Virus record (IMG/VR): IMGVR_UViG_3300042934_000869
Origin: an uncultured virus (IMG/VR IMGVR_UViG_3300042934_000869)
Lineage: Duplodnaviria > Heunggongvirae > Uroviricota > Caudoviricetes
Strand: one strand, 5' to 3'
Length of the DNA stretch: 36,102 nt
Every line of letters starts with the position of its first letter. Position 1 is the stretch's first letter. The translations under genes and the position numbers were made by a program. Below the pieces are notes generated by a model. The model was not told the origin of the DNA. It ran no database searches and saw only the letters and a list, made by a program, of their open reading frames with translations. Shown piece after piece: positions 1 to 36,102 of this stretch.

Positions 1-1427
1 TGGTGCTCTTCATACGCCCATAAAAAGAATTTGCTCATATCTACTGTACTAACTGTAGCTATGTTATTTAGTTGATTCTTAACTACTTGCGATATACTTA
101 AGAAACTAAATTCAGGTTTTGATTTTATAGATTCATATATTTCATCATTACTATATAATTGTCTGCTATACTCTTGAGAAGCTCCCTTTATTAAGGCACT
201 TGTTATATCATAGCATTCTAAACAATCATCTAGACTAATAAATCTATCTATATAAATGTTAGTTCTGAATATGTCTGTTGGTATATCGAATATGTTTATT
301 TTTTTAGAATTACAATAAGATATTAAATTTCTTAAAGATACCAGACCGTCTAATAATACCATAAATTTGTTTCTGTTCTCTTTATCGTATATAGCTTTGT
401 CTCCTTCTTTTAATGAAAATAGAGATCCTTTGTTTTTAGATGATCTACTGCCTCCATCTATTATCCATATTGTTTCATATATGTTTCTTATAAGTTCTGG
501 TGTTAGTATAGAATCTATTTGTTTATATAGCTCTATGCTAATTTCGTTCCTTATTCGATACGTTCCAATTCTGTATTCTGTTTCATATAAAGATTCCGGT
601 CTTGATACTTTTATTGGTATAAAGAACTCATTCTCATAAAGAAACCTTTCTGCTTGTTTAGTATGCGTGGTTGGATTAAATTTATTCTGAATCCTATCTT
701 TTAGAGTGTCTAGCTTAGACGTAACTTTGTATATTTTATAATTAGATACTAAATCCATATACACTGTTCCATCTGTTCTACTGTTAGCACTAAATAGTAA
801 TTTACTGGATTCATAAATCTGTTTAATATCCTTCTTAAAATCAAAAGTAGCTTGTGTCTCTATAACTGACATTTCGCTCATAATTTCAAGACCTATTTCT
901 CCATCTCCACCCCTAGTCAAAAGACCTTTTTCATTTATTAATTTACCTAAGTCTTGTCTTCTAGACTGTATAAAAAATACGAAGGATTGCCTTATAAACC
1001 CAATTGGATTAAAAGAACTATTTAGGTCGTATTTACTTTTAGAGTATAAAGAGAATCTTTCACTAAATTCATTTATGACTTCGTTTATATCATATTTAGC
1101 ATTCTTTAAATTATACTCTTTCCTTATTATTGGATTATATACTTTCTCTTTTATATAGTTTAAACTTAAGTAGTCTTCAAATAATTTTTCAATTCCATAT
1201 TTAAGTATGTACTCTTTTACCTTATATAGGAATCTATTTATGTCATTTCTATATCCATGAGTAGTTAAGAACTTCTTTAACTGCTCGAACCCATCTTCAT
1301 CAGATTTGAATGTTTCTGTAATTAACCTATCAAAAATTTTACTACAGCGTTCTTCATCTAGTAAAATCTCTGAAGCCATCTTTAGTTCTTGAACTCTAAT
1401 TTCACCTCTAAGTTCTCTCAATAACAT
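1..1427 (-). CDS. Hypothetical protein, >475 aa, runs off the left edge (absent from the ORF track)
   Basis: Manual translation from ATG at 1427 (GGAGGTGA RBS upstream): MLLRELRGEIRVQELKMASEILLDEERCSKIFD...FFLWAYEEH, with no stop before position 1. No family recognised. Confidence 0.8.
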   Translation of the reverse strand, partial: MLLRELRGEIRVQELKMASEILLDEERCSKIFDRLITETFKSDEDGFEQLKKFLTTHGYRNDINRFLYKVKEYILKYGIEKLFEDYLSLNYIKEKVYNPIIRKEYNLKNAKYDINEVINEFSERFSLYSKSKYDLNSSFNPIGFIRQSFVFFIQSRRQDLGKLINEKGLLTRGGDGEIGLEIMSEMSVIETQATFDFKKDIKQIYESSKLLFSANSRTDGTVYMDLVSNYKIYKVTSKLDTLKDRIQNKFNPTTHTKQAERFLYENEFFIPIKVSRPESLYETEYRIGTYRIRNEISIELYKQIDSILTPELIRNIYETIWIIDGGSRSSKNKGSLFSLKEGDKAIYDKENRNKFMVLLDGLVSLRNLISYCNSKKINIFDIPTDIFRTNIYIDRFISLDDCLECYDITSALIKGASQEYSRQLYSNDEIYESIKSKPEFSFLSISQVVKNQLNNIATVSTVDMSKFFLWAYEEH

Positions 1428-1432
1428 TTATA

Positions 1433-1951
1433 TCACCTCCCTATCAACATAGTAGTTACTAGGTTGATAACATAACAGTAAGTAACTATTAGTAGACCTT
1501 TTTGTACCACTGACCTTTGTGTTCTTAAAGGTCTAAAGCACATTGCTATAAAAGACATTATAGCTAATGCTATTAAGCGTAATATCCATATAATTAAATT
1601 CTGTATGAGTATTAACAGCTCTTCTAGTATTTTAGCTATAATTCCTTTTATAGAATAAAACTTTATATTTTTCTTATTATCTTTGCCATATTCCACATTC
1701 CAAAGACCAGCTTTATTACTTTTCTTTTTATTACAATCTGGACATATCGCAACACAATTAAACACTCGGTTTATACCAAACCATTTAGATACAGGGAATA
1801 TATGGTCTACTTCCATATTATGTACTGTTAGAGGTTTTATGCATTGGGAACAAAAATAGTATCTATTTAGAATACCTCTATTGTGTTTAAGATATTCTCC
1901 TCTGGCATCAAACTTTTCCCTTTTCATCCTTGAATAGGATTTGTAGCCCAA
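1433..1951 (-). CDS. HNH endonuclease-family protein with C-terminal hydrophobic (putative TM) helices
   Basis: CSQC...EVDHIFP...NCVAICPDCNKKK is the zinc-binding HNH signature. Two hydrophobic stretches in the last ~65 aa. TTG start with GGGGTGA RBS. Confidence 0.85.
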   Translation of the reverse strand: MGYKSYSRMKREKFDARGEYLKHNRGILNRYYFCSQCIKPLTVHNMEVDHIFPVSKWFGINRVFNCVAICPDCNKKKSNKAGLWNVEYGKDNKKNIKFYSIKGIIAKILEELLILIQNLIIWILRLIALAIMSFIAMCFRPLRTQRSVVQKGLLIVTYCYVINLVTTMLIGR

Positions 1952-2005
1952 AGTTTATCACCCCTTCTCCCCCTGAAAGTAATAACAGTCAGTAGCCTAG
2001 CATTG

Positions 2006-5000
2006 CTAGAAACTACTTGACTCTCTTACTTTATTATAATCCCTTTCTAAATCTTCTTGGGGATTAATATTGTTATTATCTTCTTCTATTATTAGCTCTT
2101 CGTCTGCTGTTATATTTGTAAAAGCTGAACTTTCTTCCAACTTTGATTCCTCACCTTCGAGATTATCAAATAAATCAAAATTAAGAGATTCAAAATTATT
2201 TAGATTCTCTAGGTTATTGAAATCTAATTCGTTATTACTTAATATACTAGACGTAGAACTGTTTGCTACTTCTCCTTCTAGTGCTATCTCTTTTAGGCTT
2301 GAAATTTTATTTATATATTTTGGTGTATTTATTCTTTTAGTTGCTTTAGTATGAGTATTTTCTCCTATCATCATTTGTGATAATGCACCCATTCTTTTTG
2401 ATCTTTGCCTGTCTGGTATTAGTGCTATATCTGCTATATTTCCTGCTACATTAGTGTATGCTAGGTTAGATAGGAATCCTCCTAATTTATTAACAACATC
2501 TTCTGTTTTCTCAGTCTTTTGATAGTAAGTTACATCAGCATTATCCTTTAGTATTTCTTGTAGGAAATAGCTACCTCCTGATTCATATCTCTCATCATTA
2601 GATTCTGTAACTCTTACTAAAGATGTTTGAACCCTTACTATGACTTCAAAATTCCTTACCGAGATTGTTATGTTGTTTGTAGAGAACATGTCATAAAACA
2701 CTTGTAATAAAGCTATTTGTCTCTCTTTTATAGATTCTTGAGAGCTGTCATTTCTCTTTACAGAATTAACATCTATAACTCCATTAGTAAGGAATTGTCC
2801 TCTTTCTACATACTCTCCATCTTGGATTATTACTGCGTCTTTAGGTACTTTATACTTATCATCTGATTTACCATTTAGGTTGTATATCATACAATCTTCT
2901 TTACCCATATCCTTTACTCTGAAGAAACCAGAATGATAAGCTGTTATTGCTGTTCTTTGTCTCTTAGGGAATGAGCCCTTTATATAAGCTTTGAATGTTT
3001 CAACACCAGATGACGATGAATCAGACTTTCCTCCATTGTTAACACTGTCTAGATTTAATTGTGTTGCAGTTTCTCCTATTGACTGAGAAGCACTTATTCC
3101 TATTTCTTCTCCAACTCTTGGGTACTTATGTCTCTCTGCTTTTACACCATAGCACTTAGCACAAACTCCTCCTATACTATTACAGTCTAGCATAAGTCTT
3201 ATGTTTACTTTAGTTAAGTTATTACTCTCTATCTCTTTTATAGTTTTGTTACTTACTATGGAATTCTCAAGATAGGGTAAATCGTAACCTACTCTATTCA
3301 GTATAAGTCCTTTAAACAATGGGTCTAGTTTATATTTAATATTTACTATTCCATCGTCTAGTATTACTTTTCTTATCTTTGCTTTTCTTATATAGTATAT
3401 TACTAAACTATCAACTATATTTCCTGATATGCTCATATACTTTTGTAAGTTCTCATCACTAGAGTGTATAGTCTTACCTATTAAATCTGCTATGTCTATG
3501 TCCTGACCATCTTTCTTTACTGATAGTAGTTCTGTACTGTATCTTACATCTATTAGATTATCAAGTTTACCACAATCATGCTCAACTATTTTAAAATTGC
3601 TTGTAGTAAATACAGAGCTTCTAGTTAACTCTCCTGCATCTGCTGTATCATTCTGAACTTTAGAGAAACCAACTCTTGTACCGTAAGATATAAGTATTTG
3701 GTCGAATGAGCTTAACCCTCTAGAGTAGTTAGATAATATAGGTGTCTCTAATTCGTCATTATTACTTCTAGATACTATACCTATAATTCCGCAAGATTGC
3801 ATCAACTGTGATAGATTACCTCTAGCGCCGGAATCCATTATAATGAATAAATTATTATTTCTGTCATAGTAACTTAATAAACCTTTTTTAATATAATCTG
3901 TCATATACTTATAGATTTTAAATGAAGATGTTTTTCTATCTTCGTCTGTTATTAGTCCTAACTCAAAGAAATCATTTATTTCTTTTACTATAGCTTCCGA
4001 TTTAGAAATCATAGAATCTATCTCTGGGTGTTCTATATAGTCGTCTGGGTGTAAAGTAATTCCAGACCTATCACAAGCACTTACTCCAAAGATTAACATT
4101 TTATCTAGGTATTCACATACTTTCTTGTTACTGCATTTTTCCATTAAGTAGTAGCATATTTCTTGCATACTAAAAGTTTGTAGTGGTACTCTTCCAGTCT
4201 CTTTATCAACTTTACCTTTAGGGTCTTTATTCTTTTTTATCAATCCATCGAATGCTAGATTTTTATAGTTTGTTTTATCTATGAAATCTAGTCCCAGTGG
4301 GTTTGTAAATTCATTATTTGTAAATCCATCAGGTAATAATGAGTTGAATAATATCCTACCTGCTGTAGATAAATACTTTTCACCATTAGAATGTTTATAA
4401 CATATTAAATCATATCTTTCTATATTTTTATATAATATGTCAGAATCTAATGTTTCTAAGTTATCATATAATACTATATTGTTCTCTGAGTATTTTTCAG
4501 TATCTTTATACCATGTTTTATTTTCATGCAACATAGTACTTAAATAAATACCTAATAGAATATCTTGCTTAGGTATCAATATAAAACTATCATCTTTAGT
4601 ATTTAACATTTCTGAGTAAGTAGAGATTTTTTCTAGCAATTCAGCTTCAGTCTCTGGATCTAAAGGAAATGCTCCGTACATTTGGTCCCCATCAAAATCT
4701 GCATTATATGCATCACATGTTAATGGATGTAACTGTATAGCTTGTCCTTTAACTACTTTTACTTTAAATGCTCTACATCCTAATCTGTGTAATGTTGGTT
4801 GTCTTCCTAGTATTATGACTTTGGATTCTATATACTCTATTAGCATCTCAGTTATCAGTCTTAGATGTGATTTAGATTCTTCTATTGAACCCAAGCATAA
4901 CAATCCTCCAACTTTCGCATAATCCTCTGTTACTATAGCGTCTAATAATGCAGATACATTATCATCACTTCTAGAACCGTTTTCAAGTATTGTATATGCT

Positions 5001-8000
5001 TTTGTTAATTTTGGTTTTATGAAATCAGATAGACAATTTACACAGTAAGAAAAAGGTATTCCAGCTTGTTCTAACGTTATAAGACCTGCTTCTGCAGGTA
5101 CAATAGTACCTCTGAATGACCTTGATATTATTTTAGTCATTGCATTATCTCTGATAGCACCGTCTGAATTTTCTGCTCTTTTACCTGTAAAGTATGTAAG
5201 TATGGTTCTAACTTTCTTTTCTTTTCCATACTCGTGTGATTCGTCATATCCTATAAATCCTGCTATACTGTTAAATATTTCTGTAGATTTATTTATATTA
5301 TTTACTTTTACTGAATTTATTATTCTTCTATAGTATAGGTCAAAGTCACTAACTCGATTCATCATACTTAATCTATATGTTCTAGGTAGTATTGGGAAAT
5401 GGGAGATTATGAAATCTTTGAACTCCATCTCTTCTTTTTTAAGCATTTCTATCATTGAATACAACTGCTCTTCTTTGTATATATCGTCTCCCCAGTGCTC
5501 TCTAGATTCTTTCATTTTAGCTATTGAGCTAGAATAGAAATTATATGAATCTTCTAATTTACATACTTTAAATAAGTGAACAACCGATGGCATTCCTGAT
5601 TTGAATTCATAACCTTTAATATCTCTAAGTTCTGATATATTAGTTAGCTTAGTTACTATAGCATTTTCTCCACTTACATCTACATACGCTTTTCCTAATA
5701 TTATATCTCTTAAGAATCTAGCGTTTAATGGCTCTGGCTTGTTTAATACATATTCTCCTTTACTCTTTTCTTTAAGTACTCTAGCTATTAATAGTTTACC
5801 TAATCTACTCTTGTAAATCCATGTGGGGTGTATAATCTCACATTTTAATTCCATATATCCCCATCTTTGTCTTACCTTAAATAATTTATTTGGATCATCT
5901 GTTGTTCCAAATATAAGATGGTCATGTAAACTCTCTTTGTTATTTTCTATAGGTCTTTCTGCAAATGAACATATATCAGAATCTGTAAGTATCTTCATCT
6001 TATACCCGCCATTTTCCTCATCATTTACTATATCAGTACCTAGCATTCTGGATATAGCTAGTGCGTAAGCATCATTATGATTTTCAGCATTATCTACAAT
6101 TGATCCATCAAATTCTCTATCTCCACCTTTTGATCTATTCACTATGAATTTTTTACTTACTAGATCGTCAGACAGTACAGACATTATTTCTTGTAATCCT
6201 CTAGTACATCCTGCTGAGATAAATGCCCAAGTCTCCATCTCTCCAAATGATTGTCCTCCACCTCTCTTTTTACCTTTTACTGGTTGTAGAGTTGTTGTAC
6301 TAATATTTGTTATTAGATTTGTACTTGCCGACTTAGAACTAGATAAATGTTTTAGCTTTTGGTAGTACATTACTCCTACAGTTGTAGGTCTGTCGAATAG
6401 TGCTCCTGTTCTTCCGTCTACTAAATATTCTGGTTTTGTATCTGTTAATTCAGTATATTTAGCTACTATCTCTTTTGAGTCTGGGTGATAAGGACTTAGT
6501 ACTACTCTCTTATCAGCTCCTAATTTAGTTGCTGCAAATGCTATAAGAGCATGGTAAAACTGAGCTACATTCATTCTTGAAGGCACTCCTAGTGGATTTA
6601 TTTCAAGGTCTAAAGGTTCTCCTGTTGATTGTATATATGGCATATGTGACTCTGGTACTATCTTAGCTACTACACCTTTATTACCATAGTCTCCTGTCAT
6701 CTTATCTCCTACGTCTATTTCTTTTATAGTTGCTATATAAACAGTTGCTATAGTATCATTATTAGATAATGTTGCTAGTATTACCTCTCCTTCTGTTACT
6801 ACATCTAATTTAATAGAACTGTCTTTTATACCAACTTCTCCCTTTACATATTTAGCTATTACTACAGATTTAGGCTTTAGATACGTGCCTACTTGTGGTA
6901 AACCCTCTTTAGTAAAGTCAGGTATGTATGATAGGCATCCGAACGTTTCTACTTCGTTACTATTTTCATCTTCTGATTTCTTTAGTTCATACCTTATCTC
7001 TTTGATGTATATATGAGCTAATTTATTAGTACCTAAAAGACCTCCCGATATTGTCATTCCATCATCTAGACAGGAGGACATCCATGTTTTAACCCCTACT
7101 TTTAAATTTACTCCTGTTGCTAGGTCTACACAAAAATCATTATTTGGGTCTACCTTCATGTGTCCTGTTTCTAGATATTTATCTACATCATATTTTCTAA
7201 TGTCTAGACTATTATCATACGCTACTATGTCATCTCCTTGATAAACTAAATTCCTAGTAGGTCTTATATTGTATTGTGTTAGAGAATCATCTGTGGTTCT
7301 TCTACAGAATGGAAGAATTCTTTCTACAGTTAATGTTTCTTCATCTCTTCCTAAGTCTAATTCGAATATTAATTTTCTATATCCAGGTTCGGATGTTACA
7401 GTGCTTACTAACTTTATAGGTCTATTAATAAAGTTCTCAAACTCTATATGAGATACTATATTTGAATTATTTATATAGTATAAACTTAGTATATCCTTAG
7501 CTGTCTCTATTCCAGGCTGTAGTAAACTTATAACACCTGTTGAAAATATAGGTCTTTCTGCACGTAAAGTTATAACTGCTTGTTTACGTTGACCGTCTGA
7601 CATTGTAGTTCTTTTACCAGCTTGGAACTCTCCCATAGGTATTAATGCTGATGGTAAACTTAAATTGTTTAAGTTAGAATACTCTATATACTGTAATTTG
7701 GATGGGTGAACTTTTATAATTCTTCCATTGTAATGACACGAAACTAGGTCACTACTTAAGTCACAATTCCAAGCTCCTATATAGCTATTTAGAATTTCAT
7801 ATGATTCTAACAGTACTGGTTCTTCTCCTAGAACTTTACAATTTTCTACTTTCATGAATTTACTTCTTATAGTTCCATCTTCTGCTTCTTCTGACATTAA
7901 GGTTCTATAATGAACTCTTCCTATCTTCTTAGACTCTGGCTGATGAAATGGGTCATATATTCCGTACTCTGAAGATTTTACTGTAATTAATCCATCATTA

Positions 8001-9244: not shown

Positions 9245-9489
9245 TTACTGACCCCCTTAAAGTAAAGCTCAAATATATTTCCATAATAATGTTCTAGTAT
9301 ATTTACTATTCTCGGAAATAGCTTTGGGTATTCTTTCTCCAATTTGTTATCTACTATATAATGAAACATTCCTAAAATTTCTGATTCTCTTACTATGGAT
9401 TGTTTATTAGAACTTATTGAAGTTTCTGAAATTAGAACTCTAGACTCATCTGGAGTTACCCATTGATTTTTTCTACTGTTATTTATCAT
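9241..9489 (-). CDS. Hypothetical protein (82 aa), translationally coupled to the RNAP gene
   Basis: ATGA overlap with the RNAP start. GGAGG RBS. Confidence 0.7.
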   Translation of the reverse strand: MINNSRKNQWVTPDESRVLISETSISSNKQSIVRESEILGMFHYIVDNKLEKEYPKLFPRIVNILEHYYGNIFELYFKGVSK

Positions 9490-26410: not shown

Positions 26411-26421
26411 ATTAATCCTCC

Positions 26422-30534: not shown

Positions 30535-30564
30535 ATTCTACCTCCTAAGATGTTTGTATCATGT

Positions 30565-30604
30565 AAAAAGGGGTGTGTTAAATCTTAACGACAACACACC
30601 CCTT
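30565..30604 (-). terminator. Intrinsic terminator in the leader upstream of the Hsp70 gene
   Basis: Minus strand AAGGGGTGTGTT-N13-AACACACCCCTT followed by TTT. Confidence 0.75.
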
Positions 30605-30688
30605 CTTTATCTGTTTGCTTTTTTAAACAAACTTTAAAAAATTAAGTAATTAAGCGTTGATTTATAATTTCTTCCTATCATCAACAAC

Positions 30689-30732
30689 TCACTATAGTAT
30701 AACATAATTATTCTATAATTCGGGGTTGAAAA
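30689..30732 (-). promoter_or_regulatory. Bipartite promoter-like motif, copy 3
   Basis: TTTTCAACCC-N20-TTATACTATAGTGA. Confidence 0.7.
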
Positions 30733-30743: not shown

Positions 30744-31412
30744 TCATGATATTATTCTATCTATATTCTTAACAATATCTTTAGTAAAGTAATCTGAATA
30801 ACTCATACCCTGTCTAGAAGCTTCATACAGTTTGTTATAAGATACTAACTTAGAAATCCAGAAGATATAACTATCTCTTTCTTGTGGTTCTATTGTTGCT
30901 AAAATGCAATTTATACCTTCTTCTATACTTAAATTCTTTGACACGTATTTCGAATAACTCAATAAAATCCTATATCTGAACTTTTGAACAAAATAAGGAA
31001 ATGACATTGTTCTTTTAAAACTATCACACTGCGATAGTATCTCCTCGCACTTCTCTATGAATATAGGTACTGTAGTATCTGCTTTATTGTTTATAGTTCC
31101 AAATCTGTATCTGGATAAATCTGCAAGAAATTTAGTAGTGTTGTTATCTACAATAAAATCACCTACTGATATATCATTTTTTACTTCTATATTTTTATAA
31201 GTTTCTATGTCTGATCTTATAAGGTTTAAGAAAACTTCTAAACCTCTATTAAACATCTTTCCTCTAAATAATACAACAGGCAATGAATTATATAATAATT
31301 CACCTGATATATCATCTAAGTTACTCACCAATATTCTTCTTATAGTTTCTAAACTTACATAACTTGTCTTGTTGTAATTTCTTAATATTAATTCTGATTC
31401 TAAACTAAACAT
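30744..31412 (-). CDS. Hypothetical protein (222 aa)
   Basis: ORF with GGAGGT RBS. No motif recognised. Confidence 0.75.
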   Translation of the reverse strand: MFSLESELILRNYNKTSYVSLETIRRILVSNLDDISGELLYNSLPVVLFRGKMFNRGLEVFLNLIRSDIETYKNIEVKNDISVGDFIVDNNTTKFLADLSRYRFGTINNKADTTVPIFIEKCEEILSQCDSFKRTMSFPYFVQKFRYRILLSYSKYVSKNLSIEEGINCILATIEPQERDSYIFWISKLVSYNKLYEASRQGMSYSDYFTKDIVKNIDRIIS

Positions 31413-31495
31413 ACTCTACCTCCCATTCTAATCAGTATGTATACTTTTAATAATTAGAATTTCCTGTAGTATTTAGTTTAGTATATGTTATGTTT

Positions 31496-32038
31496 CTAAG
31501 AAAATATTTTTAGTTCTGTGAAATGGTTTGTGGGATCTTTTATATCTTTTATAACTAATTTACACTTTAATTTTTCTGCTATCTCTTTTGCACTTAATAG
31601 ATCACTAATCTGTTCTTTAATTCTATTGTTATCTAAATAAAGTTCTACCACAACTCCGTATTTATCGTATTTTATTATAACTTTACTTTTAAATTTATTT
31701 AGTAAGTAAGTCAGGCCTTCTTGTCTATTTATATAACCTTTTATTTCTAGACCTCTTAGTTTATTTACTGTTGCATCGAATCTATCTAATGCTCTATAAA
31801 TATCTTGCATTACATACTCTATACTTTGTTTGCTGTAATCATAAGTAATACTATGATTGTATGTAATATCTGCTCCTAATTTTTCTAGACTTTCTATAAT
31901 AGCTATACTTTTATCTTTTAGATATAGTATGCTTAATACAGGTACTTCGTTATATTTTACTGTTTCCATATTATCTTCATAATGTATGCTGTAACTACTG
32001 TCCTTTAATTTATATCCATTTATATTTATATTTCTCAT
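31496..32038 (-). CDS. Hypothetical protein (180 aa)
   Basis: ORF with AAGGAG RBS. Confidence 0.75.
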   Translation of the reverse strand: MRNININGYKLKDSSYSIHYEDNMETVKYNEVPVLSILYLKDKSIAIIESLEKLGADITYNHSITYDYSKQSIEYVMQDIYRALDRFDATVNKLRGLEIKGYINRQEGLTYLLNKFKSKVIIKYDKYGVVVELYLDNNRIKEQISDLLSAKEIAEKLKCKLVIKDIKDPTNHFTELKIFS

Positions 32039-32069
32039 ATTATCTCCTTTCTACTATGACGTAACTATG

Positions 32070-32095
32070 AAGATACCTATAAATATAGGTATCTT
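32070..32095. terminator. Hairpin / probable terminator
   Basis: AAGATACCTATA-AA-TATAGGTATCTT just past the stop at 32105. Confidence 0.6.
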
Positions 32096-32104
32096 TTACT
32101 TAGG

Positions 32105-32569
32105 TCATTTTAGTATGTACCAATAGGGTTTACCTCTTATTCCCCACTCTGCTAGATGTTGTTTATCTCCTATATAATATTTTCTATAAGATTCTATAAC
32201 ATCATCTGTCATATATTTAGTGGGCATAGATAATTTAGGTGTTGTGATTCTATCTTTGATTGGTAAATTTGGTACACTTAAATTCTTTATTACTCTTAAG
32301 GAATCATGATATGAATATCCTCTATACACGGCCTCTCTTCCTAAGTATAGAGCGAGGTACTTTAAGTACTTCCAGTTTAGCTCACTTTCCATAACCCATC
32401 TTACACATTTATGAGTTGTATAAGCCGGAAGATATCCTTCTTCTAACCCATTTAATCTATTAACTGTGCTTAACATTTGGGCTGATTCTAAAATCATTTT
32501 TCTAACGTGAGTGTTCATATGATACTGGGCACACTTTTCTATATCATGGTCTAAGAAAAATATGTTCAT
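32105..32569 (-). CDS. Pyrimidine-dimer DNA glycosylase / endonuclease V (DenV-like) family protein
   Basis: MNIFFLD...CAQYH..HVRKMILESAQMLST, HKCVRW, YRKYY..K..LA.W..R..P.W. Confidence 0.85.
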   Translation of the reverse strand: MNIFFLDHDIEKCAQYHMNTHVRKMILESAQMLSTVNRLNGLEEGYLPAYTTHKCVRWVMESELNWKYLKYLALYLGREAVYRGYSYHDSLRVIKNLSVPNLPIKDRITTPKLSMPTKYMTDDVIESYRKYYIGDKQHLAEWGIRGKPYWYILK

Positions 32570-33003
32570 TAGAAATATGCTTCCACCAATTCTACAATAG
32601 AAGCATCTAGATATTTTATTACAAATAAATTTTCCCCATCTTCATCTTTTCCATAAATTAGTCCTTCTCCATTCCATTCTACATGATGTAGTTGGTCATT
32701 TATATCCCCTAATTCATCTTCACTAATCTCTTCTGATTTTACTAGAAGGTCTAGAATCTTGTCAATGTCTTCTAGTCCTCCTTCTATATTTGCGTATACT
32801 ACGAATGTATCTTCTTCTATAGTTTTTGCTAATACATTTCCATTAGCGTCTAGTAATGTTGTAGAATCTCCTTCATCTCCTAGGTCTTTTGTATTTTCAG
32901 CAAGGTAAATTTTTATAACCTCTGATGAAATTACAGCATTCTTGTCTGTCTGTCCTTCGAAATTACACTCTTTCAGTAATTCTAACAAATCTTCTTTATT
33001 CAT
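32569..33003 (-). CDS. Acidic hypothetical protein (144 aa)
   Basis: Coupled to both neighbours (ATGA and TAATG overlaps). Confidence 0.75.
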   Translation of the reverse strand: MNKEDLLELLKECNFEGQTDKNAVISSEVIKIYLAENTKDLGDEGDSTTLLDANGNVLAKTIEEDTFVVYANIEGGLEDIDKILDLLVKSEEISEDELGDINDQLHHVEWNGEGLIYGKDEDGENLFVIKYLDASIVELVEAYF

Positions 33004-33221
33004 TTATTCTTTCCTCCAAATTTATTTTTATTTCCTGAAATAAAATAATATATAACTAACATTAATAAGTAAAGTAATATACTCAGTGCTGATCCTTTGC
33101 TTATTAATGAAGATACCTTTTTACTTGACGTTAATATATGATAAGTGCTGTTAATTATTGCTATACCGTTTAATAGTATTACAGATAAACCTAATTTGAT
33201 TATTGTAGATTTTTTATTCAA
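33000..33221 (-). CDS. Small membrane protein (2 TM)
   Basis: Two hydrophobic helices and basic termini. Confidence 0.65.
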   Translation of the reverse strand: MNKKSTIIKLGLSVILLNGIAIINSTYHILTSSKKVSSLISKGSALSILLYLLMLVIYYFISGNKNKFGGKNK

Positions 33222-33239
33222 TTATTATGTATCCCTAAA

Positions 33240-33779
33240 TTATCTTTCATTACTCATACCTCCAAATATAAACAGTTCACTTAACATAGATGGTGATGAT
33301 ACCTTGGAATCATTTTTCTCCCAATTGTCTCCTATTAGCTTAAACCCTGTGCAGTCTTCAAATTTTAAGAACGGCACAAATGATATAACACTATCTTCGT
33401 TTTTTAATTCTTTATCTATAACTATATTATCGAATACAGTAGTTTCATCTATACTCTTATCCCTCATTAAAGAAAGAAATTTATCGTACGGTAGGCTGGC
33501 TACTAGGTCTGACTCTACATCAAACTCTAGTAAGAATTGACCACTCTTTACTGATATCATACTACTTATATCTTCCCATGAATTCTCTAAACTAACTTCT
33601 CCCATTATTTTGGTAAGTCCTACAACTAACTTAGAAGAAAATCCTGTATTGCTTTCTAGAAAGGTCTCTAGAATCTCTTTGAAGTTATTATGCATTGGGA
33701 AGATTACTACATCACATAACTTCTTATTATCTACTAATTGTCTAGATTGTTTTACATCAAGCTTTGTAATAAATTTCAT
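33240..33779 (-). CDS. Hypothetical protein (179 aa)
   Basis: AGGAGGTG RBS. Confidence 0.75.
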   Translation of the reverse strand: MKFITKLDVKQSRQLVDNKKLCDVVIFPMHNNFKEILETFLESNTGFSSKLVVGLTKIMGEVSLENSWEDISSMISVKSGQFLLEFDVESDLVASLPYDKFLSLMRDKSIDETTVFDNIVIDKELKNEDSVISFVPFLKFEDCTGFKLIGDNWEKNDSKVSSPSMLSELFIFGGMSNER

Positions 33780-33815
33780 TACACACCTCCTGCTCTGTTA
33801 TAATTAAATATCTAT

Positions 33816-34010
33816 TTAAGTTTCAAATTCAAAATCTTCAGCACAATCTTCACATAGTGTGTGTACTGTAGACTCCGATATATTTGTATCAGGTTCTTCT
33901 AGATATTGATAACCATTTATATCATAGTAGCATACTTCATCTAAATCTTCGCTTTCGAATCCGCATACTTCGCACTTTAGAGAGAACTCTACTAATCTTT
34001 TGACTTCCAT
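33816..34010 (-). CDS. Small acidic zinc-ribbon-like protein
   Basis: CEVC and CEDC cysteine pairs. AGGAGG RBS. Confidence 0.75.
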   Translation of the reverse strand: MEVKRLVEFSLKCEVCGFESEDLDEVCYYDINGYQYLEEPDTNISESTVHTLCEDCAEDFEFET

Positions 34011-34056
34011 ACTTCTACCTCCTAATATTCACTAAGCTCATCTAAATAAACTTACT

Positions 34057-34085
34057 AGAGCGTGTATTAAATTAATACACGCTCT
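34057..34085. terminator. 14-bp perfect inverted repeat (terminator or binding site)
   Basis: AGAGCGTGTATTAA-A-TTAATACACGCTCT just past the stop at 34092. Confidence 0.65.
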
Positions 34086-34091
34086 CTAAAT

Positions 34092-34262
34092 CTACTTTAG
34101 TATAATTGATGGATTTTTATGTAATGAAGGTATTCCATATACTACTACCCATTGTCTTATTAATCCTTTAGTTGCTTCTAAATTAGTCTGATTAACTTCT
34201 GAAAATAACTCTCTGCACGTACCTTCTAGAGAAATCTTCTCTACTTCTTTAGTGAAACTCAT
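34092..34262 (-). CDS. Small protein A (56 aa; absent from the ORF track), paralog of 35268-35444
   Basis: AAGGAGG RBS; MSFTKEVEKISLEGTCRELFSEVNQTNLEATKGLIRQWVVVYGIPSLHKNPSIILK*. Confidence 0.75.
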   Translation of the reverse strand: MSFTKEVEKISLEGTCRELFSEVNQTNLEATKGLIRQWVVVYGIPSLHKNPSIILK

Positions 34263-34282
34263 ATTCCCCTTCCTCCTTTATT

Positions 34283-34789
34283 TTAAGCTATTTTATTTGA
34301 TTCTGACTGCATTACTTTTATCTCTCCTTTAGATGGAATGATATATTCGTATCCAGTTTTATTTACTACTTTTATTACTATCATTAGTGTGGGATTATAT
34401 TCATAAAGTATGTCTAATACTTTACCACTTATTTTAGTTTTTGTTATATCGTATCCTTCAATTATATATCCTATATTAATCTCTAGATACTGTGAACTTG
34501 ATTTTATATACTCTATATCTTCCTTCATGATTATTTCTAACAATGCTGGATTTATAACATCTTTAAATGTATCTTTACTTATTATATTACATATTGATAC
34601 ACTAGAAGTATTTACATATTCTATCTTTCCGTCGTCTATTAACTTTTGTAATCTTGATATTACTGATTCAGTAAATGGAATATGCTCTGCTCCATTTTCT
34701 TCTAGTAATTTTAATTCTGCATACATTCTTTTTATATTTTCTAATGAGTAATTTCTTTTTATATATTCCTTTAAACATATTAATCTCAT
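34283..34789 (-). CDS. Hypothetical protein (168 aa)
   Basis: AGGAGG RBS. Confidence 0.75.
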   Translation of the reverse strand: MRLICLKEYIKRNYSLENIKRMYAELKLLEENGAEHIPFTESVISRLQKLIDDGKIEYVNTSSVSICNIISKDTFKDVINPALLEIIMKEDIEYIKSSSQYLEINIGYIIEGYDITKTKISGKVLDILYEYNPTLMIVIKVVNKTGYEYIIPSKGEIKVMQSESNKIA

Positions 34790-34843
34790 ATACTCTACCT
34801 CCTAATATTTATACCAGCTAGATAGTACAGTTGACTTATACTA

Positions 34844-35278
34844 TTATATTTCCGTATCCAACTCTTTATTGTATTCATCAAAAAGTTTATCTAATTTAAA
34901 TTTATCATAGGAGATTGTACCACTTTTTAATGTGGTTAATAATCTATATCCTATATCAGTAAAGCTATAGACTTTTCTCTCTATAAAACATATTTCCTCT
35001 TTTACTTCTATTGACTCATTCTCCTTTAAAACTTCTGATGACTCGTAAATCTCTATATGTTTATAAGATGATTCTCTTTTTGTAGCATATTTTATTTTTC
35101 CTGTATATTTATTATGTACTATAGATTTTAAATCCTCTAAAGTCTCTATAGATGTACATGGAACATACACTATATTACTATGCATGCACATATCTATGTA
35201 GTTTCCATCAAAATCAAAATCATTTGGTAAAATAACTATATAATCAGTTTCTGTTTTGCTATAAATACTATACTGCAT
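34844..35278 (-). CDS. Hypothetical protein (144 aa)
   Basis: AAGGAG RBS. Confidence 0.7.
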   Translation of the reverse strand: MQYSIYSKTETDYIVILPNDFDFDGNYIDMCMHSNIVYVPCTSIETLEDLKSIVHNKYTGKIKYATKRESSYKHIEIYESSEVLKENESIEVKEEICFIERKVYSFTDIGYRLLTTLKSGTISYDKFKLDKLFDEYNKELDTEI

Positions 35279-35444
35279 CTCTTACTCTCCTTTTGTTTAT
35301 ACTAGTAAGGATTGGGTCTTTGCTTATTTTAAGTTTCCATTCTTCTATTAATGCTTCTGTCTTTTCTAAGCTGTCTTCGTCTGTATTACCATATACTATA
35401 TAGCAAGTATCTTTTAAGTTATACTTACTTAATCTATTACTCAT
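35268..35444 (-). CDS. Small protein B (58 aa; absent from the ORF track), paralog of 34092-34262
   Basis: MSNRLSKYNLKDTCYIVYGNTDEDSLEKTEALIEEWKLKISKDPILTSINKRRVRDAV*. Fills the gap and overlaps the next start. Confidence 0.7.
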   Translation of the reverse strand: MSNRLSKYNLKDTCYIVYGNTDEDSLEKTEALIEEWKLKISKDPILTSINKRRVRDAV

Positions 35445-35458
35445 ATTAATACACTTCC

Positions 35459-35968
35459 TTAATTTAATTTAATATTATGAAAACAATCTACTGTTTTTTC
35501 TTCAAACATACTTTTAAGATCATCTCTGTACCATAGGTCTGGTGAGTTAACCAATATAGTTAGTTCTTCTACTATATTATGTGCAATCTCTAAATCTCTT
35601 CCTAGACCCTTCCAAATCTTCTTACCTCTATTAGTAACCTTACCTTTGATGACTTCTCTATGTATAGGATGTCTATAGTACACAGCATAAGAATTCCCTT
35701 TCTTAACCAGACTGCATTTGTATTTATGTATAGATTTTTTAGTATAGGTCTTTAGAAATTCCGGTAGCTTTTCTATGAACTTTGATTTGGAATATACTTT
35801 ATTATTTATCTTATCCAATACTATACTTGGGGATATTGACTCTATTATATATTTAAAATCTTTCATACTACTAGTTAAATATATTGTTGCTATCTTCTTA
35901 TCAGGCTCTAAAGAGAAGTTACTATCGTTAGTTATATACAACGCATAATCATCTATTACTGCATACAT
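35459..35968 (-). CDS. Hypothetical protein with a possible integrase arm-type DNA-binding domain in its C-terminal half
   Basis: YAVYYRHP...GKKIWKGLGRDLEIA resembles the lambda Int N-terminal YYCYRDPRTGKEFGLGRDRRIA. Confidence 0.5.
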   Translation of the reverse strand: MYAVIDDYALYITNDSNFSLEPDKKIATIYLTSSMKDFKYIIESISPSIVLDKINNKVYSKSKFIEKLPEFLKTYTKKSIHKYKCSLVKKGNSYAVYYRHPIHREVIKGKVTNRGKKIWKGLGRDLEIAHNIVEELTILVNSPDLWYRDDLKSMFEEKTVDCFHNIKLN

Positions 35969-36102
35969 GTAGCACCTCTCTATTCCTATCAGCAGACTTA
36001 GTGATGTTGTCTCTATAGCAATTGTTTATTAAAGATTTATTTATTGAGGAATAGTCTTTATTTTTAAACAATAAGCACATGCAGTCTTTGCTGACACTTG
36101 AG

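What the first reader, a model, noticed from the sequence alone, without database searches (positions are those of the whole stretch)
1..36102. Overall identity: transcriptionally autonomous, pilus-bearing large element
Seen: 36 kb of single-strand coding that combines jumbo-phage-like autonomy genes (RNAP, ligase-like, RuvC-like, primase finger, DenV-like, Hsp70) with a plasmid-like surface apparatus (Tad pilus, adhesin), mostly orphan genes, and no virion, T4SS or core chromosomal genes. Inference: part of a poorly described class of giant extrachromosomal element in Clostridia-like hosts.
Basis: inference. Interest (0 to 1): 0.75.

Follow-up and report, generated by a model that had tools for sequence, protein, structure and literature searches.

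The report
Giant element with own RNA polymerase
This 36-kb stretch is the transcription, DNA-repair and pilus-building part of a large mobile genome (phage-like or plasmid-like, not yet decidable) from a big unnamed family that carries its own fused RNA polymerase.

Summary
The gene-level observation holds. All real genes lie on the minus strand. They include a 2412-aa fused beta-beta' RNA polymerase with intact catalytic motifs, an HNH nuclease, a short NAD-ligase-like enzyme, a RuvC-fold nuclease, a CHC2 finger protein, an Hsp70, a DenV-like protein and a divergent Tad-like pilus operon. 23 of 36 proteins match no Pfam family, and no virion, VirB4/VirD4 or ribosomal gene is present.

The RNA polymerase marks a large unnamed family: 128 representative clusters at E<=1e-10, mostly 2300-3400 aa. 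It occurs only in metagenome contigs of 58-670 kb, where the order ligase / RNAP / HNH / two unknown genes / family-A DNA polymerase is conserved. Relatives also carry sortase, pilin, SecY and PBP genes.

The family was not found in the phage records, the plasmid records, IMG/VR (four markers) or 1,199 GTDB genomes. The published giant Bacillota elements (Inocle, Hodor) list no RNAP core.

I could not read the rest of the contig, so phage versus capsid-less element stays open (about 45:40).

The parts
3..1427 (-). N-terminal 475 aa of a conserved all-alpha protein of unknown function; the window edge cuts it. Relatives have 740-960 aa versions just downstream of the HNH gene.
   Evidence: tblastn gave weak hits in 14 loci. 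Alignment A2. AF2 model all-helical, pLDDT 64.8. No PDB match by sequence or fold and no Atlas match.
1433..1951 (-). HNH endonuclease with a hydrophobic C-terminal tail, directly downstream of the RNAP gene.
   Evidence: Pfam HNH 2.3e-8. PHROG HNH families. Homologues at 40-51% identity next to the RNAP in 34 of 65 metagenome loci. Three TM-like segments at residues 103-170.
2006..9244 (-). Fused beta-beta' multisubunit-type RNA polymerase, 2412 aa. This is the family marker.
   Evidence: Pfam Rpb2_6/7 and Rpb1_2/3/4/5. NADFDGD and 80+ other columns invariant in 39 family members. About 25% identity to cellular rpoB+rpoC. Separate clade in the tree. 128 representative clusters at E<=1e-10 with the N-terminal 700 aa.
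9241..9754 (-). Two small ORFs (82 and 91 aa) just upstream of the RNAP gene. Relatives have a 91-95 aa ORF at the same place.
   Evidence: ORF lists. No family hit.
9883..11064 (-). 393-aa protein of unknown function between the ligase and the RNAP. Relatives have a 370-411 aa ORF at this place, with no detectable sequence similarity to it.
   Evidence: No tblastn hit in relatives. No family.
11104..12351 (-). Short NAD+-type DNA-ligase-like enzyme: Ia-like, nucleotidyltransferase and OB parts; no Zn finger, HhH or BRCT.
   Evidence: Pfam DNA_ligase_aden 2.2e-10. phrog_3869 2.1e-29. LigA models sub-threshold. Homologues in 30 loci at 25-40% identity. K123, G126, R144, R146, E177, D288, G289 and K315 invariant; motif I is KxDG in 11 of 12 but KING in the window.
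12339..13378 (-). 195-aa unknown protein and a DUF3892 protein. The pair is syntenic with locus L162.
   Evidence: Pfam DUF3892 7.8e-16. tblastn to L162. L162 DUF3892 1e-33.
13379..13785 (-). Promoter-like motif copy 1 (13746-13785), followed by a 367-nt highly structured untranslated stretch ahead of the DUF3892-ligase-RNAP gene string.
   Evidence: Motif. Fold z-score -6.0. No Rfam family.
13797..15105 (-). Two small membrane or secreted proteins (221 and 222 aa) at the distal end of the surface cluster.
   Evidence: TM scan. No family.
15201..18542 (-). 1113-aa protein with an N-terminal signal-like segment; a candidate secreted surface or pilus-associated protein. 'Adhesin' is not shown.
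   Evidence: TM/signal at residues 1-19 and no LPXTG. Only a sub-threshold DUF7591 hit. PDB nothing below E 0.1.
18565..19410 (-). 281-aa membrane-anchored protein with a proline-rich linker. First gene after promoter-like motif copy 2 (19444-19483).
   Evidence: TM at 21-39. Only low-complexity hits. Motif.
19496..20062 (-). 188-aa polytopic membrane protein; candidate TadV-type prepilin peptidase.
   Evidence: Peptidase_A24 6.9e-4, 20.5 bits, below the cut-off of 26.5. Four TM segments.
20069..21925 (-). Four proteins with one N-terminal TM segment: 248 and 164 aa (pseudopilin-like) and 90 and 73 aa (pilin-like). Three of them (164, 90 and 73 aa) share a K/R-P-F-K/R-N leader; the 90- and 73-aa pair also share AAGQGADDMVD before the TM helix.
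   Evidence: Sequences. TM scan. No family hit. The Flp G/XXXXEY motif was not seen.
21938..24057 (-). Two polytopic inner-membrane proteins (387 and 318 aa) at the TadC and TadB positions.
   Evidence: At least 4 TM segments each. No T2SSF hit even at E<=10.
23999..25552 (-). TadA/CpaF/VirB11-superfamily secretion ATPase, 517 aa.
   Evidence: Pfam T2SSE 5.8e-10, above cut-off. NCBIfam VirB11 8.4e-19, TrbB, and the TadA family conjugal transfer-associated ATPase model, all sub-threshold. Only 15 related clusters at 42-48% identity, two on RNAP-bearing contigs. Walker A GGQGVGKST, E311/E315 and H381 invariant.
25553..27123 (-). ParA/MinD-like ATPase (TadZ/CpaE position, 285 aa) and a CpaB/RcpC-like protein with an N-terminal TM segment (233 aa).
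   Evidence: AAA_31 5.9e-8, above cut-off. phrog_164. pilus_cpaB 3.8e-4, sub-threshold. TM.
27136..28164 (-). RuvC-fold nuclease with an extra C-terminal domain, 342 aa.
   Evidence: Five homologues only. Invariant D43, E100, D195. AF2 pLDDT 85.4. Foldseek top hits are RuvC, MOC1 and phage bIL67 RuvC: prob 1.0, TM by target 0.62-0.75.
28161..28832 (-). CHC2 zinc-finger protein (DnaG-type finger only, no TOPRIM), 223 aa.
   Evidence: Pfam Zn_ribbon_DnaG 8e-7. PHROG primase families. dnaG model sub-threshold.
28813..30534 (-). Hsp70/DnaK-like chaperone, 573 aa. First gene of the Hsp70-to-pilus gene string.
   Evidence: Pfam HSP70 1.4e-80. phrog_22485 1.3e-82. DnaK and HscA models sub-threshold. 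30-35% identity both to huge uncultured phages and to cellular DnaK-type copies within 'phage' records.
30535..30728 (-). Promoter-like motif copy 3 (30689-30728), followed by a 156-nt structured leader that ends in a strong terminator-like hairpin just before the Hsp70 ribosome site.
   Evidence: Fold z-score -5.5.
30744..35968 (-). Ten small genes. Nine are orphans; 32105-32569 is a DenV/Pyr_excise-like protein of a phage-typical family.
   Evidence: phrog_624 1e-36. 253 phage records at about 39% identity. Atlas Pyr_excise clusters, nearly all viral. The others have no family.

Best explanation
The window is an internal, non-structural part of a large self-transcribing mobile genome. It is not a chromosome. 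Its host is a low-GC, single-membrane bacterium. It belongs to a large undescribed family marked by a fused beta-beta' RNA polymerase.

I lean slightly towards a jumbo-phage-like virus whose virion genes lie outside the window.

Shown:
- The RNAP is one 2412-aa polypeptide with all catalytic motifs kept.
- It sits in a conserved string. In relatives the string reads NAD-ligase-like / ~390-aa ORF / small ORF / RNAP / HNH / 740-960-aa all-alpha protein / ~270-aa ORF / large family-A DNA polymerase.
- Genes carry GGAGG ribosome sites and hairpin-plus-T terminators.

Inferred:
- The element's RNAP transcribes its own operons from a bipartite promoter, CA(A/G)CCC-N26-(A/T)ATAGTGA. The motif occurs three times, each at the head of a gene string. 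One of the conserved unknown neighbours would be the specificity factor.
- The ligase, the RuvC-fold nuclease, the DenV-like enzyme and the CHC2 protein, together with the polymerase seen in relatives, replicate, repair and resolve the element's DNA.
- Hsp70 helps fold its proteins.
- One long operon runs Hsp70, CHC2, RuvC-like, CpaB-like, TadZ-like, ATPase, two polytopic proteins, two pilin-like, two pseudopilin-like and a peptidase-like protein. It builds a secretin-less Tad-type pilus on the host surface.
- The 281-aa and 1113-aa secreted proteins, under their own promoter copy, would be pilus or surface parts. The pilus would serve attachment or cell-to-cell spread.
For: RNAP and family:
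- Pfam domains.
- Invariant NADFDGD and other motifs in 39 members.
- 38 unnamed relatives at 27-48% identity on contigs up to 223 kb.
- 128 representative clusters at E<=1e-10; 114 of the 150 listed are >=2200 aa.
- A family clade split from 71 cellular rows by a 100* branch.

Synteny:
- 38 metagenome loci carry a full-length relative.
- HNH in 34 loci and ligase in 30.
- Gene order.
- Family-A DNA polymerase or its exonuclease in 12 of 16 downstream ORFs examined.

Phage-typical parts: RuvC fold; DenV-like protein with viral nearest clusters; HNH, ligase and Hsp70 PHROGs.

Not a cell:
- 23 of 36 window proteins and 58 of 72 neighbour proteins have no Pfam family.
- No tRNA in the window or in 12 relatives' loci.

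Promoter: 3 matches against 0.04 expected, all intergenic on the coding strand with the same spacing. Sigma-70-like sites are not enriched: 76 against 100±10 and 88 against 100±9.

Pilus.

Assembly: one contig of the source run covers window 1-20000 with no difference or joint.
Against: - No virion, terminase or lysis gene was seen in the 36 kb. None appeared among the 72 neighbour ORFs of 12 relatives run against PHROGs, or the 19 locus-edge ORFs run against Pfam.
- Four family markers found no relative in IMG/VR (2.9 million viral contigs): the RNAP motif and the ligase, RuvC-like and ATPase profiles. Yet JGI-style metagenome contigs of 40-84 kb carry the RNAP (L182, L192, L212).
- No relative in 50,697 phage records, which include huge uncultured phages.
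- Relatives reach 500-670 kb. They carry sortase, SpaA pilin, SecY, PBP transpeptidase and a zeta-toxin-like gene. That cargo is known from the Hodor and Inocle megaplasmids.
- A Tad-type pilus is more usual on islands and plasmids than on phages (recalled).
- The promoter pattern was defined after seeing the three copies and is absent from 38 relatives.
- Transcription by the element's RNAP is inferred, not shown.
Confidence: 0.45

Rival explanations
1. It is a capsid-less giant plasmid-like extrachromosomal element of a monoderm host. It would be of the general kind of the recently described Hodor and Inocle megaplasmids, but unlike them it carries its own RNA polymerase and, in relatives, its own family-A DNA polymerase. 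The Tad-like pilus here, and the sortase pili and Sec/PBP genes in relatives, remodel the host surface and could serve adhesion or mating contact for horizontal spread.
For: - Surface cargo in relatives: sortase in 4 of 12 loci, SpaA domain, SecY in L203, L171 and L167, PBP transpeptidase in L222 and L192, zeta-toxin-like gene in L204.
- The window's pilus ATPase is nearest to VirB11, TrbB and the conjugal-transfer TadA model.
- No virion gene anywhere sampled.
- No relative found in IMG/VR with four markers, nor in the phage records.
- Contigs up to 670 kb under the standard code.
- Hodors were first filed among 'huge phages' and re-read as megaplasmids. They have sortases, SecYEG and LigA.
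- Inocles have sortase A and a PBP.
Against: - No Rep, ParB, relaxase, VirB4 or VirD4 in the window or in relatives' loci.
- No bacterial plasmid with a multisubunit RNAP core is known to me (recalled). None turned up in 72,556 plasmid records, where all hits were cellular-type rpoBC at about 25% identity.
- The Hodor and Inocle gene tables list only sigma factors and no RNAP core.
- Hodor GC is 44.6-47.1% against 29-41% in these loci.
- The Inocle table lists no SecY.
- An own RNAP plus own replicative polymerase, RuvC-type resolvase and DenV-like enzyme is a virus-like set.
Confidence: 0.4
2. It is part of a cellular chromosome: either an integrated island or prophage-like region, or the genome of a very reduced, fast-evolving bacterium whose only RNAP is the fused one.
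For: - Fused rpoBC exists in some cells, such as Helicobacter and Mycoplasma suis (names given by sources).
- Relatives hold cell-like genes: SecY, PBP, PolA, ligase and Hsp70.
- The beta-like N-terminal part is weakly nearer to rpoB of small-genome Bacilli. 40 of 399 genomes match at 1e-15 to 1e-21, against 0 of 399 sampled Clostridia.
Against: - 23 of 36 and 58 of 72 proteins have no Pfam family; reduced cellular genomes keep recognisable housekeeping genes (established knowledge).
- No tRNA, rRNA or ribosomal-protein gene in 36 kb plus 12 x 17-20 kb.
- The family forms a clade apart from all 71 cellular rows.
- No family member in 1,199 GTDB genomes searched.
- No integrase or flanking host genes seen.
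Confidence: 0.08
3. The odd gene mix is an assembly chimera that joins phage-like and plasmid-like DNA.
For: The source is a metagenome assembly at about 11x depth.
Against: - One contig of the run covers window 1-20000 with no differences, joints or loose ends of its own.
- Composition, strand and skew are uniform over 36 kb.
- The Tad-type ATPase and the RuvC-like gene recur on other RNAP-bearing contigs, with lengths 187,357, 135,158 and 222,855 matching between searches.
- The same promoter-like motif heads both the 'phage-like' and the 'pilus' gene strings.
Confidence: 0.02

Closest known systems
Multisubunit RNA polymerases of jumbo phages (phiKZ and AR9/PBS2 type)
   Same: A mobile element encodes its own two-barrel, beta/beta'-related RNAP and so need not rely on the host core enzyme. 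No sigma-70-family factor is recognisable nearby. Basis for the phage side: abstract of PMC7598289 in a search listing, plus recall.
   Different: The phage enzymes are split into several small polypeptides (recalled). Here beta-like and beta'-like parts of nearly full cellular length are fused in one 2412-aa chain. tblastn of the phage records gave only cellular-type rpoBC and weak partial hits at 22-24% to Rhizobium and Vibrio phages.
Cellular fused rpoBC (Helicobacter, Mycoplasma suis and others)
   Same: The same beta-then-beta' fusion order and similar length, 2280-3130 aa.
   Different: About 24-27% identity, and they fall on the other side of a 100*-supported branch. The cellular proteins carry the full set of Pfam beta and beta' domains. 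The window protein lacks recognisable Rpb2_1-3, Rpb2_45 and Rpb1_1 hits.
Hodor conjugative megaplasmids of human-gut Bacillota (preprint PMC12934698; I read sections 5-7, term passages and searched Supplementary Table 2)
   Same: Giant elements of Bacillota. They have sortases, SecY and an NAD-dependent ligase, are mostly unknown genes, and were first mistaken for huge phages. Relatives of the window also have sortase and SecY beside the ligase.
   Different: Hodors have Rep_3, ParA/B/M, VirB4/VirD4/VirB6 and a MOBH-like relaxase, with GC 44.6-47.1%. Their table lists only sigma factors and no RNAP core. Their LigA is full length at 798 aa, against 415 aa here. None of the Hodor plasmid markers could be tested on the unseen parts of these contigs.
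Inocle giant extrachromosomal elements of oral Streptococcus (PMC12340149; I read sections 7-11 and searched Supplementary Data 1)
   Same: Low-GC (32% or 24%) giant elements with replichore-like gene orientation and GC skew, mostly unknown genes, sortase A and a PBP-type transpeptidase. Relatives of the window have contigs of 287-435 kb, in the Inocle size range, with sortase and PBP.
   Different: Inocles are defined by InoC (PF13814) and have VirB4/VirD4. Their table lists sigma factors, Pol III alpha and PolC, but no RNAP core, ligase, DnaK or SecY. InoC could not be looked for here.
Tad (tight adherence) / Flp pili of monoderm bacteria
   Same: The gene order CpaB-like, TadZ-like, ATPase, two polytopic proteins, small pilin-like proteins, pseudopilin-like proteins and a small peptidase-like protein, with no secretin. 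The monoderm Tad gene order is recalled, not taken from a call.
   Different: Very divergent. Only the ATPase and the ParA-like protein pass curated cut-offs. There is no T2SSF hit and no Flp G/XXXXEY motif. The ATPase scores best with VirB11 and TrbB. The operon begins with Hsp70, a CHC2 finger and a RuvC-fold nuclease.

Membership tests
Multisubunit (two-barrel) RNA polymerase, bacterial beta/beta' type | beta' catalytic NADFDGD loop and beta/beta' core domains | tested here: met
   Rpb2_6 3.3e-46, Rpb2_7, and Rpb1_2/3/4/5, all above cut-offs. N1514, D1516, D1518, G1519 and D1520 invariant in 39 sequences.
Multisubunit (two-barrel) RNA polymerase, bacterial beta/beta' type | Partner subunits (alpha, omega) and a sigma factor | tested here: not met
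   No sigma-70, alpha or omega family hit in the 36 window proteins or the 72+19 neighbour proteins of relatives. They could lie outside the sampled DNA or be replaced by unknown proteins.
Jumbo phage (tailed phage, genome over 200 kb) | Major capsid, portal, large terminase and tail genes | tested here: inconclusive
   None in the window. None in 72 neighbour ORFs of 12 relatives by PHROGs, or in 19 locus-edge ORFs by Pfam. Only about 36 of an apparent 160 kb was visible.
Jumbo phage (tailed phage, genome over 200 kb) | Genome length over 200 kb | tested here: inconclusive
   The window's protein is on record on a contig of 160,102 bp. Close relatives are on contigs up to 222,855 bp and distant ones up to 670,364 bp. 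Completeness is unknown.
Hodor megaplasmids | Rep_3, ParA/ParB/ParM, VirB4/VirD4/VirB6, MOBH-like relaxase | tested here: inconclusive
   None in the window or relatives' loci; the rest of the contigs is unseen. The ParA-like protein here sits in the pilus operon.
Hodor megaplasmids | Several sortases plus a SecY/SecG/SecE and trigger-factor module; GC about 45-47% | tested here: not met
   The window has no sortase or Sec gene and is 28-34% GC. Some relatives have sortase or SecY, at 29-41% local GC.
Inocle | InoC marker gene (replication-relaxation domain PF13814) | tested here: inconclusive
   No PF13814 hit in the window or relatives' loci; whole contigs could not be searched.
Tad/Flp pilus system | TadA/CpaF-type secretion ATPase | tested here: met
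   T2SSE at 38.8 bits against a cut-off of 24.9. Walker A and other boxes invariant in 16 homologues. The subfamily is ambiguous: VirB11 and TrbB score above the TadA model, all sub-threshold.
Tad/Flp pilus system | TadB/TadC platform proteins (T2SSF domain) | tested here: not met
   Two polytopic proteins stand at the expected place, but there is no T2SSF hit even at E<=10. Their fold was not tested.
Tad/Flp pilus system | Flp-type prepilin with a G/XXXXEY processing motif, and a TadV (A24) peptidase | tested here: inconclusive
   Two 73- and 90-aa single-TM proteins share a conserved leader, but no G/XXXXEY motif is present (the motif is recalled). Peptidase_A24 scores 20.5 bits, below the 26.5 cut-off.
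Tad/Flp pilus system | TadZ/CpaE (ParA/MinD-like) and CpaB/RcpC proteins | tested here: inconclusive
   AAA_31 at 33.3 bits against 27: met at superfamily level. pilus_cpaB at 19.8 bits against 71: sub-threshold.
NAD+-dependent DNA ligase (LigA) | Adenylation motifs (KxDG lysine and others), the Ia-domain NAD+ signature and an OB fold | tested here: met
   DNA_ligase_aden at 41 bits against 27. K123, R144, R146, E177, D288, G289 and K315 plus Ia-like Y25, G28, D34 and Y37 are invariant in 12 sequences. The window has N in place of D in KxDG. The residue roles are recalled.
NAD+-dependent DNA ligase (LigA) | C-terminal Zn finger, HhH and BRCT domains | tested here: not met
   The protein ends at 415 aa. 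Matches cover profile positions up to about 370-400 of 650-690.
RuvC-like Holliday-junction resolvase | RNase-H-like RuvC fold with conserved acidic residues | tested here: met
   Foldseek: RuvC of four bacteria, chloroplast MOC1 and phage bIL67 RuvC. Prob 1.0, TM by target 0.62-0.75, E 1.3e-4 to 1.8e-3. D43, E100 and D195 are invariant. Activity was not tested.
Pyrimidine-dimer DNA glycosylase (DenV, PF03013) | Match to the Pyr_excise family | tested here: inconclusive
   No Pfam hit at E<=10. The Atlas feature score is 0.95 and TM 0.89 to clusters in which 33-94% of members carry PF03013. phrog_624 is named 'DNA binding protein'.

The most novel reading that the evidence does not exclude
The fused-RNAP family is a third, so far undescribed kind of giant bacterial extrachromosomal element. 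It would be capsid-less and maintained like a plasmid in monoderm bacteria from soil to the human body. It would nonetheless carry a virus-grade information core: its own fused RNA polymerase with its own promoters, a family-A DNA polymerase, a ligase and a resolvase. Interchangeable surface modules (a Tad-like pilus here; sortase pili, SecY and PBP in relatives) would be used to spread from cell to cell. That would make it a bacterial counterpart of archaeal Borgs or of the cytoplasmic linear plasmids of yeasts.
Probability: 0.35. Interest if true: 0.9.

Novelty: new variant of a known kind. Interest (0 to 1): 0.72.

Why it matters
A self-encoded multisubunit RNA polymerase is known in bacteria only from a few jumbo-phage lineages, where it is split into pieces.

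Here a full-length fused enzyme marks more than a hundred lineages (at the 50%-identity level) of large elements that no source names. Some are very common: single 90%-identity clusters hold 816, 553 and 233 member sequences. Several of the contig names read 'human gut metagenome'.

If they are phages, this is a new major clade of large phages of monoderm hosts that standard viral catalogues miss, and it carries pilus, sortase and Sec genes. If they are capsid-less, bacterial plasmid-like elements can be transcriptionally autonomous. That would change how such elements are found and classified, and how host dependence is understood.

Either way, the fused RNAP and the short ligase next to it give simple markers for collecting the family.

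Tried and rejected
Reading the rest of the contig:
- No whole genome is held for the window.
- The relatives' metagenome records are not held for whole-record searches.
- The window's DNA is in neither viral contigs nor metagenome contigs.

Earlier findings of this scan: three look-ups gave nothing.

Collecting relatives:
None of those 156 loci reaches family-level score or holds any other window protein.
Three samples of 401, 399 and 399 genomes held no member.

Conserved 475+/740-960-aa protein:
- Profile against PDB, ESM Atlas, an AF2 model (pLDDT 64.8) and Foldseek gave no usable match. I considered a sigma-like role, but nothing supports it.

Single proteins:
- 1113-aa protein: no PDB relative.
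- Ligase against PDB by single sequence: nothing at 1e-3.
- RuvC-like and DenV-like proteins by sequence against PDB: nothing.

Other family scans:
- Rfam: only a sub-threshold PhrS hit inside a coding region, taken as chance.
- PADLOC: only generic HNH and zinc-finger hits.

Polymerase of relatives: about 23% identity to phage and cellular PolA alike, so it does not tell the two readings apart.

Promoter motif: not found in 38 relatives.

Sequencing runs:
- One DNA holder, probably the source, labelled soil metagenome. No RNA holder is listed.
- Laying its contigs added only continuity and about 11x depth.

Literature:
- Five searches found no description of a fused-RNAP element family.
- Subscription journals and some supplements were not visible.
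- Supplementary Table 2 of the Hodor preprint was cut when stored.

Full report
**What is in the window**

The 36,102-base window is 28-34% G+C. GC skew is negative in all 18 two-kb bins. Every long ORF lies on the minus strand. There is no tRNA. The standard code gives 93% ORF cover, and recoding a stop adds at most one point.

I scanned 36 minus-strand proteins. 23 have no Pfam family at E<=0.01 and 29 have no PHROG.

- A 2412-aa fused beta-beta' RNA polymerase (2006-9244) with Rpb2_6/7 and Rpb1_2-5 domains.
- An HNH nuclease (1433-1951).
- A 415-aa NAD-ligase-like protein (11104-12351).
- A DUF3892 protein.
- A T2SSE-type ATPase (23999-25552).
- A ParA/MinD-like ATPase.
- A CHC2 zinc-finger protein (28161-28832).
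- An Hsp70 (28813-30534).

No PHROG of a head, tail, connector, packaging or lysis class matched. There was no VirB4/VirD4, rRNA or ribosomal-protein hit.

**The three uncertain gene calls**

*RuvC-like, 27136-28164.* The protein has only five homologues in 5.8 billion clusters. D43, E100 and D195 are invariant among them. The AF2 model has mean pLDDT 85.4. Its best PDB matches are RuvC resolvases of four bacteria, chloroplast MOC1 and lactococcal phage bIL67 RuvC, at probability 1.0 and TM by target 0.62-0.75. The RuvC fold covers about the first 210 residues, and a second domain follows.

*DenV-like, 32105-32569.* There is no Pfam hit. It matches phrog_624 at 1e-36 and occurs in 253 phage records at about 39% identity. 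The ESM Atlas places it by features (0.95) and by structure (TM 0.89) with clusters that carry Pyr_excise and are almost all viral. I treat this as a supported lead.

*'Adhesin', 15201-18542.* All I can say is that it is a 1113-aa protein with a signal-like N-terminus and no LPXTG motif. It has no convincing family or PDB relative.

**The pilus cluster**

From 27123 down to 13797 nearly every protein has a membrane or signal segment. The order is:
- CpaB-like (sub-threshold, 3.8e-4);
- ParA/MinD-like (above cut-off);
- the ATPase (T2SSE above cut-off; best NCBIfam models are VirB11 8.4e-19, TrbB and the conjugal-transfer TadA model, all sub-threshold);
- two polytopic proteins;
- two pilin-like proteins of 73 and 90 aa that share a conserved leader;
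- two larger proteins, each with a single N-terminal TM segment;
- a 188-aa polytopic protein with a sub-threshold Peptidase_A24 match.

There is no secretin. As I recall it, this is the gene order of Tad loci in single-membrane bacteria. However, T2SSF domains and the Flp G/XXXXEY motif were not found.

The ATPase is a private variant. Only 15 related clusters exist, at 42-48% identity, and Walker A and the other boxes are invariant in them.

The Hsp70, CHC2 and RuvC-like genes overlap or abut each other and the CpaB-like gene. They therefore appear to be co-transcribed with the pilus genes.

**Signals**

Intergenic regions show GGAGG-type ribosome sites and hairpin-plus-T terminators.

A bipartite motif, CA(A/G)CCC-N26-(A/T)ATAGTGA, occurs three times. 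All three copies are intergenic, on the coding strand, with identical spacing:
- at 30689-30728, ahead of the Hsp70-to-pilus string;
- at 19444-19483, ahead of the 281-aa and 1113-aa genes;
- at 13746-13785, ahead of the DUF3892-ligase-RNAP string.

Chance expectation is 0.04. The pattern was defined after I had seen the copies, so this number flatters it.

Sigma-70-like sites are not enriched: 76 against 100±10, and 88 against 100±9.

Two of the motif copies are followed by strongly structured untranslated RNA, with z-scores of -5.5 and -6.0. Neither has an Rfam family.

**The family**

The RNAP is about 25% identical to cellular rpoB+rpoC. It has no closer match in 50,697 phage records or 72,556 plasmid records.

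In the 5.8-billion-cluster protein collection it has 38 unnamed relatives: 27-48% identity, 2356-2893 aa, sources Logan and ENA only. Their longest contigs run to 222,855 bp, and several lie near 160 kb (160,296; 159,854; 162,857; 163,356). The window's own protein is on record on a contig of 160,102 bp. In all 39 sequences the NADFDGD loop and 80-odd other columns are invariant.

A search of 1.84 billion representatives with the family-specific N-terminal 700 aa found 289 proteins at E<=1e-3, 128 at 1e-10 and 78 at 1e-30. Of the 150 listed, 114 are at least 2200 aa, and 96 of those hold NADFDGD.

I built a FastTree tree of the beta' core from 124 rows. The element sequences (53 rows) stand apart from all 71 cellular rows across a branch with support 100 and length 0.93. 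The window lies in a clade of 26 rows with support 99. This was a quick method with long branches and midpoint rooting only.

**Relatives with readable DNA**

A degenerate pattern for the family motif [YF]xSTAGR[IV]xFN found 65 metagenome loci. Of these, 38 carry a near-full-length relative at 27-33% identity. Their contigs range from 8 kb to 670,364 bp, and many are 287-567 kb. Four contig names read 'human gut metagenome'.

Some of these RNAPs equal clusters with 816, 553 and 233 member sequences.

Synteny is conserved:
- The HNH gene follows the RNAP in 34 of the 65 loci (33 of them among the 38 RNAP-bearing loci, plus L185), and the ligase-like gene precedes it in 30.
- The gene order is ligase / ~390-aa ORF / small ORF / RNAP / HNH / 740-960-aa protein / ~270-aa ORF.
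- In 12 of 16 downstream ORFs examined, the next gene is a large family-A DNA polymerase or its 3'-5' exonuclease part. By position, the window would have this gene just beyond its left edge. That is an inference.

The ligase family keeps the adenylation lysine, the other nucleotidyltransferase motifs and a LigA Ia-like signature, but lacks the Zn, HhH and BRCT domains.

Of 72 other neighbour ORFs in 12 relatives, 58 have no Pfam family. The rest include:
- sortase (4 loci);
- a SpaA pilin domain;
- SecY (also in two further loci);
- PBP transpeptidase (2 loci);
- a zeta-toxin-like ATPase;
- DUF3892.

Only 7 of the 72 match any PHROG, none structural. No tRNA lies in the 12 loci. The Tad-type ATPase is not within 10 kb of the RNAP in any of these distant relatives. 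It does share contigs with the RNAP in closer ones, as does the RuvC-like gene, shown by matching contig lengths.

**Phage or plasmid-like?**

For a virus:
- an own RNAP;
- an own replicative-type polymerase in relatives;
- a ligase, a RuvC-type resolvase, a DenV-like enzyme and an HNH nuclease;
- an Hsp70 of the kind also seen in huge phages;
- contig lengths of close relatives clustering near 160 kb.

Against a virus:
- No virion gene anywhere sampled.
- Four markers find no relative in IMG/VR, although JGI-style contigs of 40-84 kb carry the RNAP.
- No match among huge uncultured phages in the phage records.
- Sizes up to 670 kb under the standard code.
- Surface cargo typical of the newly described Bacillota megaplasmids.

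I read the two relevant papers in part.
- *Inocles* (PMC12340149): circular, 245-395 kb, 24-32% GC. They have InoC, VirB4/VirD4, sortase A and a PBP. Their gene table lists sigma factors only, with no RNAP core, ligase, DnaK or SecY.
- *Hodors* (PMC12934698): 211-389 kb, 45-47% GC. They have Rep_3, ParABM, a T4SS, sortases, SecYEG and a full-length LigA, and again sigma factors only.

The family here is therefore not either of these as annotated, although it shares their surface theme.

I put the virus reading at about 0.45, the capsid-less element at 0.40, a cellular origin at 0.08 and a chimera at 0.02.

**Host**

A single-membrane, low-GC host is inferred from three things: the secretin-less pilus operon, the GGAGG sites, and the sortases and PBP in relatives.

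'Clostridia-like' is not shown. The beta-like N-terminal part matches rpoB of small-genome Bacilli weakly (40 of 399 genomes at 1e-15 to 1e-21), and none of 399 sampled Clostridia at that level. This may reflect composition as much as descent.

The only run that holds the DNA is labelled soil metagenome and is probably the source. One of its contigs covers window 1-20000 without any difference or joint, at about 11x depth.

**Verdict**

The window belongs to a real, large, unnamed family of big self-transcribing elements. Five literature searches found no description of it. Whether the family is viral or plasmid-like could not be decided with the DNA I could reach.

Noticed in passing
window 30535-30690 (-) and 13379-13745 (-): Two untranslated stretches just downstream of promoter-like motif copies fold far better than shuffles (z -5.5 and -6.0). 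The first ends in a strong terminator-like hairpin right before the Hsp70 ribosome site, like a leader or attenuator or a small RNA. No Rfam family matches.
   Followed up: partly
window 11104-12351 (-), residue 125: The ligase motif I reads K-I-N-G in the window, where 11 of 12 family members have K-x-D-G. The adenylation lysine itself is kept.
   Followed up: partly
window 1433-1951 (-): The HNH nuclease conserved next to the RNAP has a hydrophobic C-terminal tail with three TM-like segments. Its fixed position beside the RNAP in 34 loci argues against a stray homing endonuclease.
   Followed up: partly
L213:1-3462, L162:3-3878, L182:14-3907, L214:16424-20032, L188:16988-20032 and others: A large family-A DNA polymerase with a 3'-5' exonuclease (850 to over 1290 aa; several are cut by the locus edge) lies four genes downstream of the RNAP in 12 of 16 relatives examined. 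It is only about 23% identical to phage or cellular PolA.
   Followed up: partly
L203:89-766, L171:19271-20032, L167:19183-20031; L222:18643-19953, L192:18712-20016; L162, L202, L182, L214: Relatives carry SecY, PBP-type transpeptidase, sortase and a SpaA pilin domain within 10 kb upstream of the RNAP module. The surface cargo differs between clades (Tad-like in the window).
   Followed up: partly
L167, L175, L189, L215 (contig ranges): In four independent assemblies the fetched locus ends 8.3-8.6 kb from a contig end, although the contigs are 287-390 kb long. This suggests a shared repeat or breakpoint there.
   Followed up: no
G005:C39:9496-11544: A Clostridiales MAG shows a single open frame of 2564 aa across its rpoB-rpoC matches, a possible cellular rpoBC fusion. 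It is at cellular-level similarity to the window protein, not a family member.
   Followed up: no
GTDB genomes G004 to G1196 versus the class of G003: The beta-like N-terminal 700 aa matches the ordinary ~1200-aa rpoB of 40 of 399 small-genome Bacilli at 1e-15 to 1e-21, but none of 399 sampled Clostridia. This is either a hint of origin or a composition effect.
   Followed up: no
window 34011-34282 and 35279-35458 (-): Both 'intergenic' stretches hold a short ORF (about 50-55 aa) with a good ribosome site, below the ORF-list threshold. The small-gene block is therefore denser than the list shows.
   Followed up: no
P0090, P0091 (tree): Two 2715-2749-aa proteins that I first counted as cellular fall on the element side of the tree on a very long branch. 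The family may be wider than the 39 aligned members.
   Followed up: no
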